64,000 nt of DNA from Escherichia coli (lineage in GTDB: Bacteria > Pseudomonadota > Gammaproteobacteria > Enterobacterales > Enterobacteriaceae), in the NCBI RefSeq assembly GCF_048403405.1, contig NZ_CP183129.1; one strand, given 5' to 3'. The translations under genes were made by a program, and so were the position numbers. The notes under the pieces were generated by a model. It saw only the letters and a program-made list of their open reading frames with translations, did no database searches and had not been told where the DNA came from. Shown here one piece after another: positions 10,084-39,972 of the stretch (positions within the stretch are counted from its first letter, which is position 1; every line of letters starts with the position of its first letter).

Positions 10084-10247
10084 GGATTAACTATGCGTTT
10101 ACATGTTAAATTGAAAGAGTTTTTTTCGATGTTTTTTATAGCCATATTATTTTTCCCTGCATTCAATGCTTCTTTATTTTTTACCGGAATTAGGTGATGC
10201 TGCCAACTTACTGATTTAGTGTATGATGGTGTTTTTGAGGTGCTCCA

Positions 10248-10523
10248 GTGGCTTCTGTTTCTATCAGCTGTCCCTCCTGTTCAGCTACTGACGGGGTGGT
10301 GCGTAACGGCAAAAGCACCGCCGGACATCAGCGCTATCTCTGCTCTCACTGCCGTAAAACATGGCAACTGCAGTTCACTTACACCGCTTCTCAACCCGGT
10401 ACGCACCAGAAAATCATTGATATGGCCATGAATGGCGTTGGATGCCGGGCAACCGCCCGCATTATGGGCGTTGGCCTCAACACGATTTTCCGCCATTTAA
10501 AAAACTCAGGCCGCAGTCGGTAA
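10248..10523 (+). CDS. insA: IS1 InsA (transposition inhibitor / N-terminal part of transposase)
   Basis: 91-aa ORF beginning [43 protein letters not shown], inside IS1. Confidence 0.9.
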
Positions 10524-10945
10524 CCTCGCGCATACAGCCGGGCAGTGACGTCATCGTCTGCGCGGAAATGGACGAACAGTGGGGATACGTCGGGGCTAAA
10601 TCGCGCCAGCGCTGGCTGTTTTACGCGTATGACAGGCTCCGGAAGACGGTTGTTGCGCACGTATTCGGTGAACGCACTCTGGCCACACTGGAGCGTCTTC
10701 TAAGCCTGCTGTCGGCCTTTGAGGTCGTGGTATGGATGACGGATGGCTGGCCGCTGTATGAATCCCGCCTGAAGGGAAAGCTGCACGTAATCAGCAAGCG
10801 TTACACTCAGCGAATTGAGCGGCATAACCTGAATCTGAGACAACATCTGGCAAGGCTGGGACGGAAGTCACTGTCGTTCTCAAAATCGGTGGAGCTGCAT
10901 GACAAGGTCATCGGGCATTATCTGAACATAAAACACTATCAGTAA
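10442..10945 (+). CDS. insB: IS1 InsB reading frame (expressed as InsAB' transposase by -1 frameshifting)
   Basis: -1 frame ORF overlapping the end of insA, translation typical of IS1 InsB ([21 protein letters not shown]...). Confidence 0.88.
10496..10505 (+). promoter_or_regulatory. IS1 programmed -1 ribosomal frameshift site TTTAAAAAAC
   Basis: A6C motif lies in the insA/insB overlap; the IS1 frameshift mechanism is established knowledge. Confidence 0.8.
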
Positions 10946-11484
10946 GTTGGAGTCATTACCCGGAATTAAACCTCTATATTCAATAATAAAAGGCTCCACG
11001 GAAATATTTTATGATTGGAGAATGTTGATTCTATGCTTCGGTTTCATATCGTTTTCCTTGTTAAATATTCATGTAATTTTACTAACAATAATAAAATCAT
11101 TCTTAATAAAAAAAACAAAGGTAATCAATTTCGCCACAGACATAACAATACAGCTAACTCTTATATTTTTACTAATAGCTATCGTAATAGCACCTTTAAT
11201 AGCTCCTTTTGTCACAGGATATGTCAATGCTAATTGTCACCCCTGCGGTAATAACACGGGGATTTTCCCAGGAGCAATCTATATTAAAAATGGCATAAAA
11301 TGTAATAATGAACATATTTCTCGCAAGGAAGATTAAGCAGTTAAATAATTAAATATTCTAAAACAAACAGTTTTTAACGCCGGATTCCATGTCCTTTCTT
11401 GCACTGTCTTTGTCAGGAACAATTTCTTATGCAAAGAATTTTGTATTATTGCCGCCAGAAATTCCTGGCGGCAGATATAATTTA

Positions 11485-12805: not shown

Positions 12806-13537
12806 TTATGCCCGCCAGAGGCAGCTTCCGCCCTTTTTCTGCACCAGATCGAGACGGGCTTCATGTGCCGCAAGCTCTTCATCTGTCGCAAAAACAACGC
12901 GTAACTTACTTGCCTGACGCACAATGCGCTGAATTGTTGTTTCACCTTGTTGCTGTTGTGTCTCTCCTTCCATCGCAAAAGCCATCGACGTTTGACCACC
13001 AGTCATCGCCAGATAAACTTCCGCAAGGATCTGGGCATCGAGTAATGCCCCGTGCAACGTTCGTTTACTGTTATCTATTTCGTAGCGGGCACATAACGCA
13101 TCGAGGCTGTTGCGCTTACCGGGAAACATTCTCCTCGCCACCGCAAGGCTATCGGTGACCTTACAGAAGGTATTGGTCTTCGGAATATCGCGCTTAAGCA
13201 ACGAAAACTCGTAGTCCATAAAGCCGATATCGAACGCTGCGTTATGGATCACCAACTCCGCGCCGCGAATATAGTCCATGAACTCATCGGCTACTTCGGC
13301 AAACGTGGGCTTATCGAGCAAAAATTCATCGGCAATACCATGTACGCCAAAGGCTTCCGGATCCACCAGCCGATCGGGTTTGAGATAAACATGGAAGTTA
13401 TTGCCCGTCAGGCGACGGTTCACCACTTCAACGGCACCAATCTCAATGATCTTGTGGCCTTCATAGTGCGCGCCAATCTGGTTCATACCGGTGGTTTCGG
13501 TATCGAGAACGATCTGGCGTGTAATTGCAGTGCTCAT
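12806..13537 (-). CDS. dnaQ: DNA polymerase III epsilon subunit (3'-5' proofreading exonuclease)
   Basis: Translation [20 protein letters not shown]...GGSCLWRA, 243 aa. Confidence 0.97.
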
Positions 13538-21163: not shown

Positions 21164-24065
<2,902 letters not shown>

Positions 24066-32818: not shown

Positions 32819-33643
32819 ATGGATAAACCAAAGGCGCATTGCTGCCTGCTTCTCCCCTGCTTTCTTTTCCTTTCGGCCTGTACCGTAGATATCAGCCAGC
32901 CAGACTCATCAGCCACAGCGGTAGATGCCGGGGCGAAAACATGGGCAGTCCAATTCCAGCATCAAAGCTCTTTCACCGAACAATCAATAAAAGAAATAAC
33001 GGAACCTGATCTCAAACCCGGCGATTTGCTGTTCTCCTCAAGCCTTGGGGTAACCTCATTTGGAATCCGCGTCTTCAGCACTTCCTCTGTGAGTCACGTT
33101 GCAATCTATCTGGGTGAAAATAACGTTGCAGAAGCGACAGGCGCTGGCGTCCAGATTGTTTCCCTCAAAAAAGCGATGAAGCATAGCGATAAGCTTTTCG
33201 TCTTACGAGTCCCGGATCTTACCCCGCAACAAGCCACAGAAATCACCGCGTTCGCCAACAAAATTAAAGATAGCGGTTATAACTATCGCGGCATTGTCGA
33301 ATTTATTCCCTTTATGGTGACTCGCCAGATGTGCTCACTGAATCCGTTCTCCGAGGATTTTCGTCAACAGTGCGTCAGCGGCCTGGCGAAAGCGCAGTTA
33401 AGCAGTGTGGGCGAAGGAGACAAAAAGTCGTGGTTTTGTTCGGAGTTTGTCACTGATGCATTTGCCAAAGCCGGGCATCCGCTTACCCTGGCGCAGTCGG
33501 GCTGGATTAGTCCTGCCGACCTGATGCATATGCGTACTGGTGATGTCTCTGCGTTTAAGCCAGAAACGCAGTTACAGTATGTTGGGCACCTGAAGCCAGG
33601 GATTTATATCAAGGCGGGTCGCTTTGTTGGGCTGACTCAGTGA
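32819..33643 (+). CDS. yaeF: NlpC/P60-family lipoprotein YaeF
   Basis: ~274 aa with signal peptide and lipobox (LSAC). Confidence 0.85.
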   Translation: MDKPKAHCCLLLPCFLFLSACTVDISQPDSSATAVDAGAKTWAVQFQHQSSFTEQSIKEITEPDLKPGDLLFSSSLGVTSFGIRVFSTSSVSHVAIYLGENNVAEATGAGVQIVSLKKAMKHSDKLFVLRVPDLTPQQATEITAFANKIKDSGYNYRGIVEFIPFMVTRQMCSLNPFSEDFRQQCVSGLAKAQLSSVGEGDKKSWFCSEFVTDAFAKAGHPLTLAQSGWISPADLMHMRTGDVSAFKPETQLQYVGHLKPGIYIKAGRFVGLTQ

Positions 33644-33645
33644 TG

Positions 33646-33669
33646 AAAGCCGGAGAATGCTCCGGCTTT
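33646..33669. terminator. Bidirectional hairpin terminator between convergent yaeF and nlpE
   Basis: Perfect palindrome AAAGCCGGAG-AATG-CTCCGGCTTT. Confidence 0.7.
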
Positions 33670-33672
33670 CAA

Positions 33673-34383
33673 TTACTGCCCCAAACTACTGCAATCCTGG
33701 TTTGGGTAAAATTTCCCTGCCGTATCGGGTGCTAATACTTTGGTTGGCGCACCGGTATCCGGATTAGCCTCAAGCGTAAAGTGACCTTCTACTGACAGTA
33801 ACATCGGTTTTTCACTATGACCGCGCGCAGTCAGGTAGCCACGCTCCAGCTCTGCGTTATTCGCTACCATGAAACGTTTTCCGGTCGCGCAATCAGTGAA
33901 GGTCGCCGCATCAGCCATATAAAAATACATGCCCCGCAGGGTCATCGGCGTCATGGGTAAACTGGATTGCGCCGGTTCCAGCGTATAGTTGAACTGCGAT
34001 TCAATCGGATTACCTTCACGATCGAGCATCTCCAGCGCATCTCCTTTCGCCCGATAATATGACTTTTCACCTTTGCTGTCGGTTAATACCAGCTTGTCAG
34101 CGGTTCGCGCCCATGTACCGTAGGAAGCGAAAGAGGAAGGCTCTTCACGCGCACCAAGATAGCGCTCATTCATCACCCAGGTTCCGTCTTTTTCGAGGAA
34201 CAGAGAGGTTTCGATCCCTTCGCAATCAGCACACGGCAGCACGCCGCGCCAACTTTGCGGCATCGGTTTCAGTTCGGCAGCCTGCGCCGGAGAAAGCGTG
34301 TCGACTTCGGCCCGATTATTACATCCCATCAGAGTAAAGAGGCTGATTACAGCCATCGCTGTCACTATCGCTTTTTTCACCAT
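33673..34383 (-). CDS. nlpE: Envelope stress sensor lipoprotein NlpE (CutF)
   Basis: 236 aa with lipobox LMGC and CxxC motif. Confidence 0.92.
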   Translation of the reverse strand: MVKKAIVTAMAVISLFTLMGCNNRAEVDTLSPAQAAELKPMPQSWRGVLPCADCEGIETSLFLEKDGTWVMNERYLGAREEPSSFASYGTWARTADKLVLTDSKGEKSYYRAKGDALEMLDREGNPIESQFNYTLEPAQSSLPMTPMTLRGMYFYMADAATFTDCATGKRFMVANNAELERGYLTARGHSEKPMLLSVEGHFTLEANPDTGAPTKVLAPDTAGKFYPNQDCSSLGQ

Positions 34384-34396
34384 CCATTCCTTCTTT

Positions 34397-34819
34397 TTAT
34401 TCCCGACCGCTGCGCACTTTGCCGCGCATCGCCTTCACGCTTGATTTTTGTGCTTTCGATGCCAGCCTGCGCTCTTTTGATGCGCGGGTGGGCCGCGTGG
34501 GTCGTCGGGCTTTTTGTTCTGTTGTTAAATCTTTAATCACTGCCACCAGCCGGGCCAGCGCCGCTTCGCGGTTGAGCTCCTGATTGCGGTATTCCTGTGC
34601 CTTAATGACAATCACGCCATCACTGCTGATCAAATGATGGCTGGCGGCGAGCAGACGCTCTTTGTAATACTCTGGCAGGCTGGACGCCCGAATGTCAAAA
34701 CGCAGATGAATAGCCGTTGAGGTCTTATTAACATGCTGCCCGCCCGCGCCCTGCGCACGAATGGCGGTGATCTCAAGCTCACCATCGGGGATAGCAACAT
34801 GTCGGGAAATCACAATCAT
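34397..34819 (-). CDS. arfB: Peptidyl-tRNA hydrolase ArfB (YaeJ), ribosome rescue factor
   Basis: 140 aa with GGQ motif ([10 protein letters not shown]) and basic C-terminal tail. Confidence 0.93.
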
Positions 34820-35361
34820 GAAGGTTGTTGCCAGACGGTTAAGTTCACTTCCAGATTATTCTTATCATCCGATAACCAGATCACGCCATCCTGAATCGTT
34901 GCCTGCAGCGTCATGGTACGATCGGCAAAGGCGCTCACTTTCGCCAGCTGCTCGTCGTCCAGATACCAGACGGAAAGATTGGCAAACTGCGCACATTTGC
35001 TCTGATTTTGCTGCCACCAGATTTGCGCCGCCCGACTATTATAGGTAAACAGCGCCACTTCTGCGGCCTGGGTGCAGGCTTTCTTAATTCGTCGCTCATC
35101 CGGCAGCCCCAGCTCAATCCACAAATCAATGCCCAAATGATCGTTACGCCGCCACGCTTCCGGCTCATCATCGGCACACAAACCACGGGTAAATTGCAGA
35201 CGTTCATCAGCATATTTCAGCCACGCCAGCAGGCGCAGCATCATACGCTCCTGGGTTTCTGAAGGATGGCGCGCCAGCGTCAGAGAGGCATCGAGAAACT
35301 GGTTGCGGTCGAGATCGGCCACATTAACCGTCGCTTTATAAATTGTCGCTTTAAGCGCCAT
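34816..35361 (-). CDS. yaeQ: YaeQ family protein
   Basis: 181-aa ORF at the position of yaeQ. Confidence 0.85.
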
Positions 35362-35526
35362 AAGAAAACTCCTTTCGAATCAGGAGGCCATTGTAACGGA
35401 ATACGTGCAGTTGCGGCGCTGATATTGCAGAAATGAGTGTGGTATAGTCACCTTGCGAAACAGAGTTTATCTTCGTAGGCTTAGACTTGCATCCACGGTT
35501 AAGTCAGAGTGCTGACAGGAGGGCAT

Positions 35527-35727
35527 GTGGAAAAATATTGTGAGTTAATACGCAAGCGGTACGCGGAAATCGCCAGCGGAGACTTAGGATACGTTCCGGA
35601 CGCGCTGGGCTGCGTTTTGAAAGTGCTGAATGAAATGGCTGCCGACGACGCCCTTTCTGAGGCTGTCAGGGAAAAAGCAGCATACGCTGCGGCAAACTTA
35701 CTGGTGAGCGATTATGTCAATGAATGA
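35527..35727 (+). CDS. yaeP: YaeP (UPF0253) small protein
   Basis: 66 aa from a GTG start ([19 protein letters not shown]...); the tracked ORF begins 6 codons earlier at 35509. Confidence 0.7.
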
Positions 35728-35974
35728 TACGTATCAACCAATCAATTGTGATGATTACGATAATCTTGAGCTCGCCTGCCAGCATCATTTAATGCTGACA
35801 CTCGAGCTGAAAGATGGCGAAAAATTGCAGGCGAAGGCCAGCGATTTAGTCTCCCGCAAAAATGTGGAGTATCTGGTCGTCGAGGCCGCTGGTGCAACCC
35901 GCGAGCTGCGTCTGGATAAAATTACCAGCTTTAGCCACCCGGAAATCGGTACGGTGGTGGTGAGCGAGTCCTGA
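35714..35974 (+). CDS. rof: Rho-binding antiterminator Rof (YaeO)
   Basis: 86 aa, [25 protein letters not shown]... Confidence 0.9.
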
Positions 35975-36022
35975 TTGACTTTCGCCGGATGCGACGTTTG
36001 AAGCGTTTTATCCGGCTTTCAC

Positions 36023-37320
36023 TTAACTAAGCGTTTTCTGCCAGACAAAACTGACGCCATTCTCACCTTCAGCCACACCTTCTTGCGTCACAAATACCCC
36101 TGCCGCCGCAATCAACGTTTCGCCATAAAACAGCAGTGGCGTGGTGTCACGTAGCCACGGCGGCACACCCAGCTCTTGCCAGATTTTCTTCAGCTTACGT
36201 CCGCCGTTGCGCCCGATAATATGCAGCAATCCTGGCGCTTTGAAACGCACGCTGACCGCTTCGTCTGCACGCGGAGGGCGAATATCGCCTCCCGCAGTAA
36301 GCTGTACACTTCCCAGTCCCGCCGGTAATTCCAGCGGTTGTAGCCACGTCTGCCACGGCACAATGGTTTCGCTTTGCCCGGCAACGGATTTAATCCACCA
36401 CAGTTGCGACTGATAGCGGCGGATTTCAAACGCGCCCAGACGTAAACAGGGGGAAGCATCTTCCCGCGCCAGCGCCACTTCCTGCCAGATCCGCACCAGC
36501 GCGTCGCGGGAAGGCATCGGTGCATTCTGCCCTGCCAGCCAGCGGCGGATAATTGCCGCGCGACGGGCATCACTCATCGCCAGCATTGGCGCAATCTGCA
36601 GCGTCCCCTGCGGCGTTTGGCAGTGCGCTAAATCATCTGCCAGCAATTCATCCAGCAGGCTCTCTTGTTCAGCACAAAGTGCGGCGCTGCGGGCCGTTGC
36701 GTCGGCAAAATGCGGCCAACGCTGCTGCAATAACGGCACTACGCGCAGGCGCAGAAAGTTACGATCGTATGAGTCGTCCTGATTACTTTCGTCTTCAATC
36801 CAGCGTAAACCATGCGCCAATGCCCACTGCTCCAGTTCCCCCGCGTGCGGGCGAGCAACGGGCGGATAAGCCGTGTTCCGGCAAACTCCGAAACTTCCGC
36901 CATAGCCGAAAGCCCGGCAGGGCCGCTACCGCGTTTTAGCGCCAGCAGAAAGGTTTCACATTGATCGTCGAGATGTTGCGCGGTGACCAGCACTTCGCCG
37001 GGCAATAGGGTACGGGCAAATGCCTGATAACGCGCCTGCCGCGCCTGGGCCTCAATCCCCAGCCCCTCTTGCGCAAGTTGTACGCGTTCGACCACCAGCG
37101 GCACCTGCCACTGTTGGCAGATGTTCTCGCAATGCCTAACCCAGGCATCGGCATTGGCACTTAAACCGTGATGCACATGGATAGCGCGTAGAGTGACGCC
37201 CGGATTTTCCGTCCGCCACTGCACCAACTGATGCAGCAAAACGGTGGAGTCAAGCCCGCCGCTAAAGGCCACCAGAATCTGGCGTGAGGTGAGAAGTTGT
37301 CTATTGAGCGTGAGTGTCAT
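36023..37320 (-). pseudogene. tilS: tRNA(Ile)-lysidine synthetase TilS, reading frame broken by an apparent 1-bp deletion in a homopolymer (C5 on plus strand at 36838-36842)
   Basis: The N-terminal half (36739-37320, with the SGGLDS PP-loop) and C-terminal half (36023-36820) are in different frames. One extra G in the minus-strand run would join ...LLARTRG to [17 protein letters not shown]... Confidence 0.8.
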
Positions 37321-37384
37321 GATGGTGCGATTTTACAGTAGCAATGCCCGGCACGTTACCGGGCAAATGCGGCGATGACAAGCC

Positions 37385-37774
37385 TTACTGCTCATACAGT
37401 TCCAACGGCAGCCCGTCCGGATCGTTAAAGAACGTGAAGCGTTTTTGCGTGTATGGATCGACACGGATGGCTTCACACTTCACGTTATGGCTTTCAAGGT
37501 GCGCCACTGCCGCATCGATATCATCAACGCTAAAAGCCAGATGACGCAGGCCGCAAGCTTCCGGTCGGCTGGGGCGCTCCGGCGGGAACGGAAATGAGAA
37601 AAGCTCAATCACATATTGCCCATTAAGCGCCAAATCCCCTTTCCACGAGTCGCGCGCTTCGCGATAGACTTCGCTTTGCAGCGTGAAACCAAGAATATCG
37701 CAGTAAAACGCTTTGCTCACCGCATAATCCGTCGCAATAATCGCAATATGGTGAACCTGTTTTAAACCCAGCAT
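37385..37774 (-). CDS. yaeR: Glyoxalase/VOC-family protein YaeR
   Basis: 129 aa from MLGLKQVHHIAIIATDY (the tracked ORF has a 9-codon upstream extension). Confidence 0.85.
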   Translation of the reverse strand: MLGLKQVHHIAIIATDYAVSKAFYCDILGFTLQSEVYREARDSWKGDLALNGQYVIELFSFPFPPERPSRPEACGLRHLAFSVDDIDAAVAHLESHNVKCEAIRVDPYTQKRFTFFNDPDGLPLELYEQ

Positions 37775-37830
37775 AACGTCTCCTTTATTTGTTAACAGCA
37801 CGTTACTCGCCCGGAAGCCGCTCTGGCAAG

Positions 37831-39972
37831 TTATCCCGCCATTTTTAGGACTCGTACGCGGTAAACGCCGTCTTCGTCCTGTTTCGCGCCGTGAATATCC
37901 GTTTCAAAACCGGGGTAATGTTGCCCTACGGAACAAAGCATCAGTAGAAAATCGAGTACTGTGCGGCTCTCTTTGGTCAGCATTTCTCCTGGCATCAGCA
38001 GCGGTACGCCCGGTGGATAAGGCAGGATCATATTTGCCGACACCCTACCAACCAGTTGTTCCAGCGCAATGGTTTCTACTTCGCCTTTAATCTGCCTCTG
38101 CCATGCCTGATGTGGCGTCATGATCATCTCCGGCAAGGTATCGAATGCCCGCAACATCAAACCGGGAAGATCGTGTTTACGAATCAGCTTATGGATCCCT
38201 TGCGCCAGATCCTGAATGCGCATATTGCGGTAGAAATCGGGATCTTCTGCATAGAGATCGGGTAGCATATTTTTGATCCGCAGGTTGAGATCGTAAGAGC
38301 GCTTAAATTCCGTCAACCCACGCAATAATCCCATTGCTTTGGTTTTATCGATTCCAATACTAAAGAGAAACAGCAGGTTATAAGGACCGGTTTTCTCTAC
38401 TACGATCCCTCGTTCGTCGAGGAATTTTGCTACCAGCGCCGCCGGGATCCCCTCCTCGCTCATATTGCCCTGCTCGTCCATCCCCGGTGTCAAAATAGTG
38501 ACTTTAACCGGATCGAGAAACATATGATCGGCATCCGCATCGTTAAAGCCGTGCCACTGTTCGCCAGGCGCAACGGGCCAGCATTCGGCTTCATCCACCT
38601 GCGGCGGTTGCCAGATATCGAAAAACCAACCGTCAGACTCTTCCCGCAGCCGCTGGACCTCTTTGCGAAAATGCAGCGCCCGCTCCACCGAACGGTTAAT
38701 CAGCCGTTTGCCCGGATTACCACGCAGCATCGCCGCCGCCGTCTCAACCGAAGCAACAATGGGATAACTGGGCGAGGTGGTGGTATGCATCATAAAGGCT
38801 TCGTTAAACGCCTCTTCGTCATACTCGCCTTTAATGTGGATCAGCGAAGCCTGCGATAACGCCGCCAGCATTTTGTGGGTCGACTGCGTTTCGAAGATCA
38901 CTTTTCCCGCAACACGCTCGCCGCTCATACCACTTTTACCCTGGTAGATCGGATGAAAATGGGTGTACGGCACCCAGGCAGAATCGAAGTGAATCGACGG
39001 GACATCCAGCGTCTGTTTGATCCAGTCGGTGTTGTAGAGCAAGCCATCATAGGTGGAGTTGGTGATCACCGCATGAACCGGCCATTGAGCTTGCGTGGTA
39101 GCAGCGACTTTCTCTTCGATGCTGTCGCGAGTAAATTCACGGCGCGGGATCCCACCAAGAATCCCCAACGCATTACGCGTCGGTTTCAGCCAGACTGGCA
39201 CTACATCGTTCATCATCAACAGATGCGCCAGCGATTTATGACAATTGCGGTCGATCAACAGCGTACTGCCGGACGGCGCGGCGTACATACCCACAATTTT
39301 GTTAGACGTCGATGTTCCGTTGGTAACGATATAACTCTGTTCCGCGCCAAAAGTCCGCGCGATGTACTCTTCCGCTTCCAGGTGTGGCCCGGTGTGGTCG
39401 AGCAACGAACCAAGCTCGGTAACCGAAATAGAGACATCAGCCTTAAGAGTATTCCCGCCGAAAAAATCATAAAACAGACAGCCAACCGGGCTTTTTTGAT
39501 ATGCGGTGCCGCCCATATGACCCGGCGTACAAAAGGTGTACTTCCGCTCTTTGACGTAGGTAAACAAGGCTTTCGTGAACGGCGGTGTAATGTTATCAAG
39601 ATATTCGTCGGTGTACTGACGCATACGAATGGCGATATCTTCTGCCTGCCCCAGCGCATATTCAAAAAACCAGAGCGCCATCCGCATATCCTGCACGCTG
39701 ACATCCATCGTCGAGTGGGTGTTGATGAAGGCATAAAGCGGGAGATATTCATTAAGCTGATTGATATCGCTACATAAATCGAGACTGTACTCATCCCAGT
39801 CAAAAATCACGCCGCAAATTCGAGGGTTATGTTCAATAAATTTCAGCAAATCAACGCTGTTTTGTGGCCAGATAATCTGAAAGCCTTGCGCCACCAGCGC
39901 CGACTCCAGTTCTTTGATGGGCTCATCTTTATAAAAGACGCCATGCGGTCCCATAATGGCAATGATGTTCAT
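37831..39972 (-). CDS. ldcC: Lysine decarboxylase, constitutive
   Basis: 713-aa PLP-dependent decarboxylase (Orn/Lys/Arg family); located next to accA. Confidence 0.93.
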   Translation of the reverse strand: MNIIAIMGPHGVFYKDEPIKELESALVAQGFQIIWPQNSVDLLKFIEHNPRICGVIFDWDEYSLDLCSDINQLNEYLPLYAFINTHSTMDVSVQDMRMALWFFEYALGQAEDIAIRMRQYTDEYLDNITPPFTKALFTYVKERKYTFCTPGHMGGTAYQKSPVGCLFYDFFGGNTLKADVSISVTELGSLLDHTGPHLEAEEYIARTFGAEQSYIVTNGTSTSNKIVGMYAAPSGSTLLIDRNCHKSLAHLLMMNDVVPVWLKPTRNALGILGGIPRREFTRDSIEEKVAATTQAQWPVHAVITNSTYDGLLYNTDWIKQTLDVPSIHFDSAWVPYTHFHPIYQGKSGMSGERVAGKVIFETQSTHKMLAALSQASLIHIKGEYDEEAFNEAFMMHTTTSPSYPIVASVETAAAMLRGNPGKRLINRSVERALHFRKEVQRLREESDGWFFDIWQPPQVDEAECWPVAPGEQWHGFNDADADHMFLDPVKVTILTPGMDEQGNMSEEGIPAALVAKFLDERGIVVEKTGPYNLLFLFSIGIDKTKAMGLLRGLTEFKRSYDLNLRIKNMLPDLYAEDPDFYRNMRIQDLAQGIHKLIRKHDLPGLMLRAFDTLPEMIMTPHQAWQRQIKGEVETIALEQLVGRVSANMILPYPPGVPLLMPGEMLTKESRTVLDFLLMLCSVGQHYPGFETDIHGAKQDEDGVYRVRVLKMAG

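What the first reader, a model, noticed from the sequence alone, without database searches (positions are those of the whole stretch)
36023..37320. Essential gene tilS appears frameshifted in a homopolymer run
The PP-loop N-terminal half and the C-terminal half of TilS lie in different frames, separated by a 5-nt C-run on the plus strand (36838-36842); one additional base would restore a continuous ~432-aa protein. TilS is essential in E. coli, so this is most likely a homopolymer sequencing or assembly error. If real, it would imply frameshift rescue by slippage or a split functional protein.
Basis: partly seen in the sequence, partly recalled or inferred. Interest (0 to 1): 0.55.

Follow-up and report, generated by a model that had tools for sequence, protein, structure and literature searches.

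The report
tilS frameshift: homopolymer assembly error
The essential E. coli gene tilS looks broken here only because one C is missing from a run of six, and controls show this is almost certainly an ordinary sequencing or assembly miscount rather than biology.

Summary
tilS (36023-37320, minus strand) is split into a 193-aa and a 265-aa ORF at a C5 run (36838-36842). Restoring one C gives a 432-aa TilS identical to that of the nearest complete genomes.

- Across 64 kb the window differs from strain MS 69-1 only by an IS1 insertion, one SNP and this missing C.
- The same C5 recurs in at least four unrelated E. coli backgrounds. Several of those assemblies also carry homopolymer frameshifts in other essential genes (dnaE, ispU).
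- C5 contigs are mostly short and fragmentary: 4 of 33 blocks reach 50 kb, against 520 of 645 for the intact allele (p = 4e-16).
- A control deletion I made in silico in the C6 run of rseP, also essential, is just as common: 9 of 5,424 complete genomes against 3 of 2,679 for tilS, and 28 against 33 blocks of public assemblies.
- The break lies inside the PP-loop catalytic domain. There is no slippery heptamer and no stimulatory RNA structure, and relatives do not conserve the frameshift.

One doubt remains. A sister sample, ERR15516431, carries C5 on a clean 74-kb contig, and its sequencing platform is unknown. Raw reads would settle it. Artefact about 0.9.

The parts
36023..37320 (-). tilS (tRNA-Ile lysidine-34 synthetase) gene. 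It is 1298 nt here and 1299 nt in all close relatives.
   Evidence: 99.9 % identity to annotated tilS in six complete genomes, with one gap as the only difference; after repair the protein matches PDB 1NI5 (E. coli MesJ/TilS) at E = 1e-282.
36838..36842 (.). C5 homopolymer (G5 on the coding strand, codons CGG GGG AAC). It is C6 in the closest genomes and in about 2,676 complete E. coli genomes that share the same 81-mer context. This is the site of the apparent 1-nt deletion.
36739..37320 (-). 5' ORF of 193 aa. Residues 1-161 are authentic TilS, including the SGGLDS PP-loop. The last 32 residues are out of frame, ending at a stop codon.
   Evidence: gene callers report exactly this product on other C5 contigs, with Pfam PF01171.
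36023..36837 (-). 3' part of tilS in the other frame, encoding authentic residues 162-432: the rest of the PP-loop domain, the TilS substrate-binding domain and TilS_C. The mechanical ORF runs 36023-36820 from a TTG.
   Evidence: for domains: PF01171 at 14-191, PF09179 at 241-308, PF11734 at 356-427.

Best explanation
The organism's tilS is intact, and the window's C5 run is an undercall of a true C6 run. The error would have arisen during base-calling, consensus or polishing of the long-read or hybrid assembly this window comes from. The window must come from such an assembly because it runs uninterrupted through an rRNA operon and an IS1 copy. Shown here: the deletion sits in a homopolymer and is the only 1-nt indel against a near-identical genome. 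The same miscount occurs repeatedly and independently in other assemblies, at the rate seen for any comparable C6 run. Inferred: the reads behind this particular assembly would support six C, or be ambiguous, on inspection.
For: 1. Over about 63 kb of aligned sequence the window differs from MS 69-1 (CP146675.1) only by an IS1 insertion, one SNP and this single-base gap. All six nearest complete genomes have C6 and an intact tilS.
2. C5 is found in at least four genetic backgrounds. These are the window-like one (L009/L018, L020, L012, L014), a strain-7/2-like one (L006-L008, L010, L011, L013, L015), the 98232/B1.H1 one (L016, L017, L025) and a mosaic (L019). It therefore arose many times independently.
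3. Many carriers are visibly error-laden. L008, L012 and L014 have further deletions in G5, T6 and A6 runs of tilS and ldcC. B1.H1.18 has tilS, dnaE (C4 to C3) and ispU (C7 to C6) all annotated as frameshifted. B1.H1.1 has tilS and ispU frameshifted.
That points to a platform effect rather than descent.
5. Contig-length classes differ sharply. Only 4 of 33 C5 blocks reach 50 kb, against 520 of 645 for the intact allele (Fisher p = 4e-16). The 50-200 kb class, which holds 494 of 645 intact-allele blocks, holds 1 of 33 C5 blocks.
6. Control: a C6 to C5 deletion that I made in silico in essential rseP occurs in 9 of 5,424 complete genomes, against 3 of 2,679 for tilS (p = 0.76). Its invented 437-aa product is on record in 28 blocks, against 33 for tilS. 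It also occurs in SRR15989093, which carries the tilS C5 too. Control genome E2865 has rseP and ispU frameshifted.
7. Biology argues against a real loss. The break is inside the PP-loop domain. Essential genes in the window use AUA codons: 3 in dnaE, 4 in rseP, 1 in bamA and 1 in lpxB. No alternative AUA decoder is present in the window. tilS is described as essential, and the published B. subtilis tilS deletion decodes AUA without the canonical tRNA-Ile2 (PMC3919564, PMC10128029; abstracts listed).
Against: The window is otherwise very clean, with no other 1-nt indel in 64 kb, so it is not from a generally noisy assembly. A second, non-identical sample of the same clone also carries C5. This is ERR15516431, with one SNP at window 30291 over 20.4 kb, and its contig is 73.9 kb long and otherwise error-free. 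That contig falls in the length class that dominates among intact-allele contigs. If that run is Illumina data, C5 would be real in the clone. I could not determine the platform or see any reads.
Confidence: 0.9

Rival explanations
1. The 1-nt deletion is real, and cells survive on leaky rescue. During translation of CGG GGG AAC, the P-site tRNA-Gly slips back one base on the G run. The next codon read is then GAA, which yields a protein identical to wild-type TilS at a low level that suffices for this low-demand tRNA-modifying enzyme.
For: A -1 P-site slip on G|GGG would restore the exact wild-type sequence ...RTRG-ELEQW.... The sister sample ERR15516431 carries C5 on a long clean contig. The window has no other indel errors.
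Against: The site is not an X XXY YYZ heptamer, because tRNA-Asn on AAC cannot re-pair on GAA. There is no stable downstream structure (z = +1.64; 192 of 200 shuffles fold at least as well). A G5 run is too short for efficient transcriptional slippage (established knowledge, not tested here). Only 3 of about 2,679 complete genomes with this context have C5, and each of the three is annotated as a frameshifted pseudogene. The invented rseP control is equally frequent. C5 is associated with fragmentary contigs.
Confidence: 0.05
2. The deletion is real and tilS is a true pseudogene. AUA decoding would be maintained by something outside this window, such as a second tilS copy or a suppressor tRNA-Ile with a UAU anticodon, as in the B. 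subtilis tilS deletion strain or in Mycoplasma mobile.
For: Published precedents exist for life without TilS (PMC3919564, PMC3575796; abstracts listed). The rest of the genome is not visible to me.
Against: No such decoder is in the window. The nearest genomes, essentially identical over 64 kb, keep an intact tilS. The recurrence across at least four backgrounds, the contig-class skew and the rseP control all point to artefact. There is no further decay in the gene: it has zero substitutions against the intact allele.
Confidence: 0.02
3. The deletion is real, and the two fragments (1-161 plus tail, and roughly 168-432 or the 238-aa product) assemble non-covalently into an active split TilS.
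For: Both fragments remain open ORFs, and the downstream one has possible TTG or GTG starts.
Against: The cut lies at residue 161 of a PP-loop domain that spans residues 14-191, so it falls inside the catalytic domain and not in a linker. The possible downstream starts leave residues 162 to about 167, or 162 to about 194, unencoded. A split tilS is not conserved in any lineage.
Confidence: 0.01

Closest known systems
Homopolymer-length indel errors in long-read or older pyrosequencing-type bacterial assemblies, which create false 'frameshifted' pseudogenes
   Same: This is a single-base undercall in a C/G run, and it splits a conserved gene whose sequence is otherwise 100 % identical to the intact allele. 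The identical event is seen in other assemblies alongside frameshifts in dnaE, ispU and rseP. The problem of gene-fragmenting errors in long-read assemblies is documented, for example in PMC12007338 (title only, listed).
   Different: The window is otherwise clean, with one such event in 64 kb. It would be a residual, context-specific error rather than general noise.
E. coli TilS / MesJ (PDB 1NI5; WP_000176559.1)
   Same: After one C is restored the product is 100 % identical to WP_000176559.1. It has the PF01171, PF09179 and PF11734 domains.
   Different: As written in the window, the reading frame is interrupted after Gly161.
Programmed -1 ribosomal frameshifting (the E. coli dnaX type)
   Same: A -1 shift would be the direction needed to restore the frame, and a G run is present.
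   Different: There is no X XXY YYZ heptamer and no downstream stem-loop, and the frameshifted arrangement is not conserved.
Rescue of real frameshifts by polymerase slippage at long poly(A) tracts in endosymbionts (Buchnera, Blochmannia)
   Same: The concept is the same: a homopolymer frameshift in a needed gene that is tolerated through slippage.
   Different: Those cases involve A/T tracts of about 9 or more bases in reduced genomes, and the frameshifts are evolutionarily retained (from my own knowledge, not tested here). This is a G5 run in a free-living E. coli whose relatives are intact.

Membership tests
TilS (tRNA-Ile lysidine synthetase) | N-terminal PP-loop ATP-pyrophosphatase motif SGGxDS | tested here: met
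   SGGLDS at residues 20-25 of the 5' ORF. PF01171 at E = 9e-64.
TilS (tRNA-Ile lysidine synthetase) | Domain architecture of PP-loop, TilS substrate-binding domain and TilS_C | tested here: met
PDB 1NI5 at E = 1e-282.
TilS (tRNA-Ile lysidine synthetase) | Single continuous ORF of about 432 codons | tested here: not met
   The frame is broken after codon 161 at the C5 run. It is continuous in all six nearest genomes.
Assembly or sequencing homopolymer artefact | The indel lies within a homopolymer and is the only single-base indel against a near-identical reference | tested here: met
Assembly or sequencing homopolymer artefact | The same miscount recurs independently in unrelated strains and co-occurs with other homopolymer frameshifts in essential genes | tested here: met
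Assembly or sequencing homopolymer artefact | Frequency no higher than at a comparable control homopolymer | tested here: met
   tilS 3 of 2,679 against rseP 9 of 5,424 complete genomes, p = 0.76. 33 against 28 blocks of public assemblies.
Assembly or sequencing homopolymer artefact | Raw reads contradict or fail to support the assembled run length | not testable with these tools
   I had no access to reads or to the platform metadata of the source assembly or of ERR15516431.
Programmed -1 ribosomal frameshift site | Slippery heptamer X XXY YYZ in the zero frame | tested here: not met
   The zero-frame codons are CGG GGG AAC. Only the P-site tRNA could re-pair.
Programmed -1 ribosomal frameshift site | Downstream stimulatory RNA structure | tested here: not met
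   MFE -17.2 kcal/mol against a shuffle mean of -21.8, z = +1.64.
Programmed -1 ribosomal frameshift site | Frameshifted arrangement conserved among relatives | tested here: not met
   3 complete genomes with C5 against about 2,676 with C6 in the same 81-mer context.

The most novel reading that the evidence does not exclude
The C5 run is real in this clone, meaning the window strain and its sister sample ERR15516431. Under this reading a natural E. coli isolate lives with a frameshifted essential tilS. It would make just enough wild-type TilS through unprogrammed -1 P-site slippage of tRNA-Gly on the G run, or it would carry an unseen bypass for AUA decoding.
Probability: 0.07. Interest if true: 0.55.

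Novelty: not a real feature. Interest (0 to 1): 0.06.

Why it matters
As an artefact it matters only for quality control. The tilS annotation of this assembly should be repaired or flagged, and the locus should not be read as gene loss. The work also gives a reusable test for apparent frameshifts in essential genes: make the same deletion in silico in a comparable homopolymer of another essential gene and check whether that invented product is equally common in public assemblies. If the frameshift were real, it would show that E. coli can tolerate a drastic reduction or bypass of lysidine synthesis. That would be of real interest for translation biology and for TilS as an antibiotic target.

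Tried and rejected
1. dnaQ mutator idea. The only SNP against MS 69-1 lies in dnaQ codon 173, which briefly suggested a proofreading mutator that generates frameshifts. I rejected this. The window carries the common Glu173 allele, with the exact 81-mer in 514 complete genomes, and the Asp173 variant is private to MS 69-1.
2. Identifying the source assembly. I looked up the IS1-truncated YkfM product (34 aa), and it is not on record. The window-background C5 products are found only on three Logan contigs, none of which is the window itself.
3. Programmed frameshifting. There is no heptamer, no downstream structure and no conservation.
4. An alternative AUA decoder in the window. Only tRNA-Ile(GAU), tRNA-Ala and two tRNA-Asp are present.
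5. The platform of ERR15516431. I could only argue from contig length and cleanliness, which is inconclusive.

Full report
**Observation**

The flagged interval is the E. coli tilS gene on the minus strand. The ORF listing and a straight translation show two ORFs:
- A 193-aa ORF at 36739-37320. It begins MTLTLNRQ and contains the PP-loop motif SGGLDS.
- A 265-aa ORF at 36023-36820 in another frame, carrying the C-terminal TilS sequence.

The two frames meet at a run of exactly five C at 36838-36842. A megablast of 35950-37400 against 5,426 complete E. coli genomes found the locus in 5,424 of them. Six matched at 99.9 % over 1452 nt against the 1451 nt of the query. Base-by-base alignment shows a single difference from those genomes, which is one extra C in the run. 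In them tilS is a continuous 1299-nt gene encoding the 432-aa WP_000176559.1. The frame breaks after Gly161.

**Context**

I fetched the corresponding 72 kb of strain MS 69-1 and aligned the whole window to it. The two sequences differ in only three ways:
- A 768-bp IS1 with an 8-bp target duplication inserted into ykfM at window 10193-10960.
- One SNP at 13019, in dnaQ codon 173.
- The missing C in tilS.

The window runs uninterrupted through an rRNA operon and the IS1, so it must come from a long-read or hybrid assembly. The dnaQ difference is not a mutator lead. The window has the common Glu173 allele (514 genomes share the exact 81-mer), and Asp173 is private to MS 69-1.

**Is C5 unique to this sequence?**

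It is not. The exact 193-aa truncated product is on record in 33 blocks of the public assembly collection. Aligning ten of those contigs to the window, then three more and three complete genomes, shows C5 in at least four genetic backgrounds:
- **The window's own background:** L009/L018 from ERR15516431, L020 from SRR19165786, and L012 and L014.
- **A strain-7/2-like background:** about 40 SNPs per 6.6 kb relative to the window. Strain 7/2 itself has C6 (L003), as do the other complete genomes listed at 98.8 % identity.
- **The 98232 / B1.H1 background:** 98.8 % identical to the window.
- **A mosaic:** L019.

The event is therefore recurrent and not inherited from one ancestor.

**Quality of the assemblies that carry C5**

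- L008, L012 and L014 carry further single-base deletions in G5, T6 and A6 runs of tilS and ldcC. L008 also has a substitution at a CCTGG site.
- Complete genome B1.H1.18 has tilS, dnaE (C4 to C3) and ispU (C7 to C6) all annotated as frameshifted within 40 kb, plus a 21-nt deletion in 23S rRNA.
- B1.H1.1 has tilS and ispU frameshifted.
Descent cannot explain that, but a platform effect can.
- In the window's own background the intact allele is on record in 645 blocks, while the C5-specific downstream product is on three contigs.
- The contig-length classes differ sharply. 520 of 645 intact-allele blocks reach 50 kb, and 494 of them fall in the 50-200 kb class. Only 4 of 33 C5 blocks reach 50 kb, and 85 % are under 20 kb (Fisher p = 4e-16). 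A real allele should be spread across data types in the same way as its intact counterpart.

**Negative control**

The only other C6 or G6 run inside a core protein-coding gene of the window is in rseP, which is also essential (51893-51898). I deleted one C there in silico.
- The resulting 81-mer is present at 100 % identity in 9 of 5,424 complete genomes. For tilS the figure is 3 of about 2,679 with the same context. The rates do not differ (p = 0.76).
- In control genome E2865, rseP and the neighbouring ispU are both annotated as frameshifted.
- The invented 437-aa RseP product is on record in SRR15989093, the same run that shows the tilS C5.
- With the common RseP allele, the invented product is on record in 28 blocks, all on contigs shorter than 20 kb. 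The tilS figure is 33 blocks.

A frameshift that I made up is as common in public assemblies as the one under study. So the tilS C5 sits at the background rate of homopolymer miscounts.

**Biological plausibility of a real frameshift**

- The break at residue 161/162 lies inside the PP-loop catalytic domain (PF01171, residues 14-191), not in a linker. The repaired protein matches E. coli MesJ/TilS, PDB 1NI5, at E = 1e-282.
- Essential genes in the window itself use AUA codons: 3 in dnaE, 4 in rseP, 1 in bamA and 1 in lpxB.
- The window holds no alternative AUA decoder. Its only tRNA-Ile has the anticodon GAU.
- The literature describes tilS as essential. The published B. subtilis tilS deletion strain decodes AUA without the canonical tRNA-Ile2 (PMC3919564, PMC10128029; abstracts listed).
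- A -1 slip of the P-site tRNA-Gly on G|GGG would regenerate the exact wild-type protein, because the codons are CGG GGG AAC and the next codon read would become GAA. However, this is not an X XXY YYZ heptamer, and there is no downstream stimulatory structure (z = +1.64). The arrangement is also not conserved.
- The gene has zero substitutions relative to the intact allele, so there is no sign of pseudogene decay.

**Residual doubt**

The window is otherwise clean. A second, non-identical sample of the same clone (ERR15516431, one SNP at window 30291 over 20.4 kb) also carries C5, on a 73.9-kb and otherwise perfect contig. If that run is Illumina data from a pure culture, the deletion would be real in this clone. 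If it is modern nanopore data from the same study, a shared context-specific miscount explains it. I could not determine the platform, and the window's source assembly could not be identified.

**Verdict**

This is a homopolymer undercall artefact in an otherwise ordinary, intact tilS, with probability about 0.9. The remaining probability covers a real deletion with leaky slippage rescue (about 0.05), a real pseudogene with a bypass elsewhere in the genome (about 0.02), or a functional split enzyme (about 0.01). Inspecting the reads or Sanger-sequencing the locus would settle the matter.

Noticed in passing
window 10193-10960: A complete 768-bp IS1 with an 8-bp target-site duplication (CGGAATTA) is inserted after codon 33 of ykfM. 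It is absent from the otherwise near-identical strain MS 69-1, so it is a recent and genuine transposition.
   Followed up: partly
window 13019 (dnaQ codon 173): This is the only SNP against MS 69-1 in 64 kb. The window has GAA (Glu), the common allele found as an exact 81-mer in 514 complete genomes. MS 69-1 has a private GAT (Asp) in the proofreading subunit of DNA polymerase III.
   Followed up: yes
L016 about 37358 / L017, L025 and L024 (ispU): A C7 run in the essential gene ispU (uppS) is annotated as frameshifted in three separate 'complete' RefSeq genomes: B1.H1.18, B1.H1.1 and E2865. It is another recurrent homopolymer miscount hotspot.
   Followed up: partly
L017 (B1.H1.18), corresponding to window 23753-23773: There is a 21-nt deletion inside the 23S rRNA gene relative to strain 98232 and the window. 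It is probably an assembly error in a collapsed rRNA repeat.
   Followed up: no
L001 1448-1870 (TUM14771 arfB): arfB, the alternative ribosome-rescue factor, is annotated as a pseudogene with an internal stop in strain TUM14771. It is intact in MS 69-1.
   Followed up: no
L019 (SRR27089208), window 33350-38685: This contig is a mosaic. It is identical to the window between about 35411 and 36899 but about 1.5-2 % divergent on both sides. That implies a recombination breakpoint inside tilS near the frameshift site.
   Followed up: no
L007 (SRR28764850), window 38387-38388 and 39077-39080 (ldcC): Clustered multi-base substitutions occur at ACCGG contexts. They may be methylation-related base-calling errors rather than real variants.
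   Followed up: no
window 1 to about 10100: By synteny with the MS 69-1 annotation, this stretch holds a type VI secretion cluster (tssH, vasI, tssA, tssM, a VasL-domain gene, Hcp) directly upstream of the IS1-disrupted ykfM.
   Followed up: no
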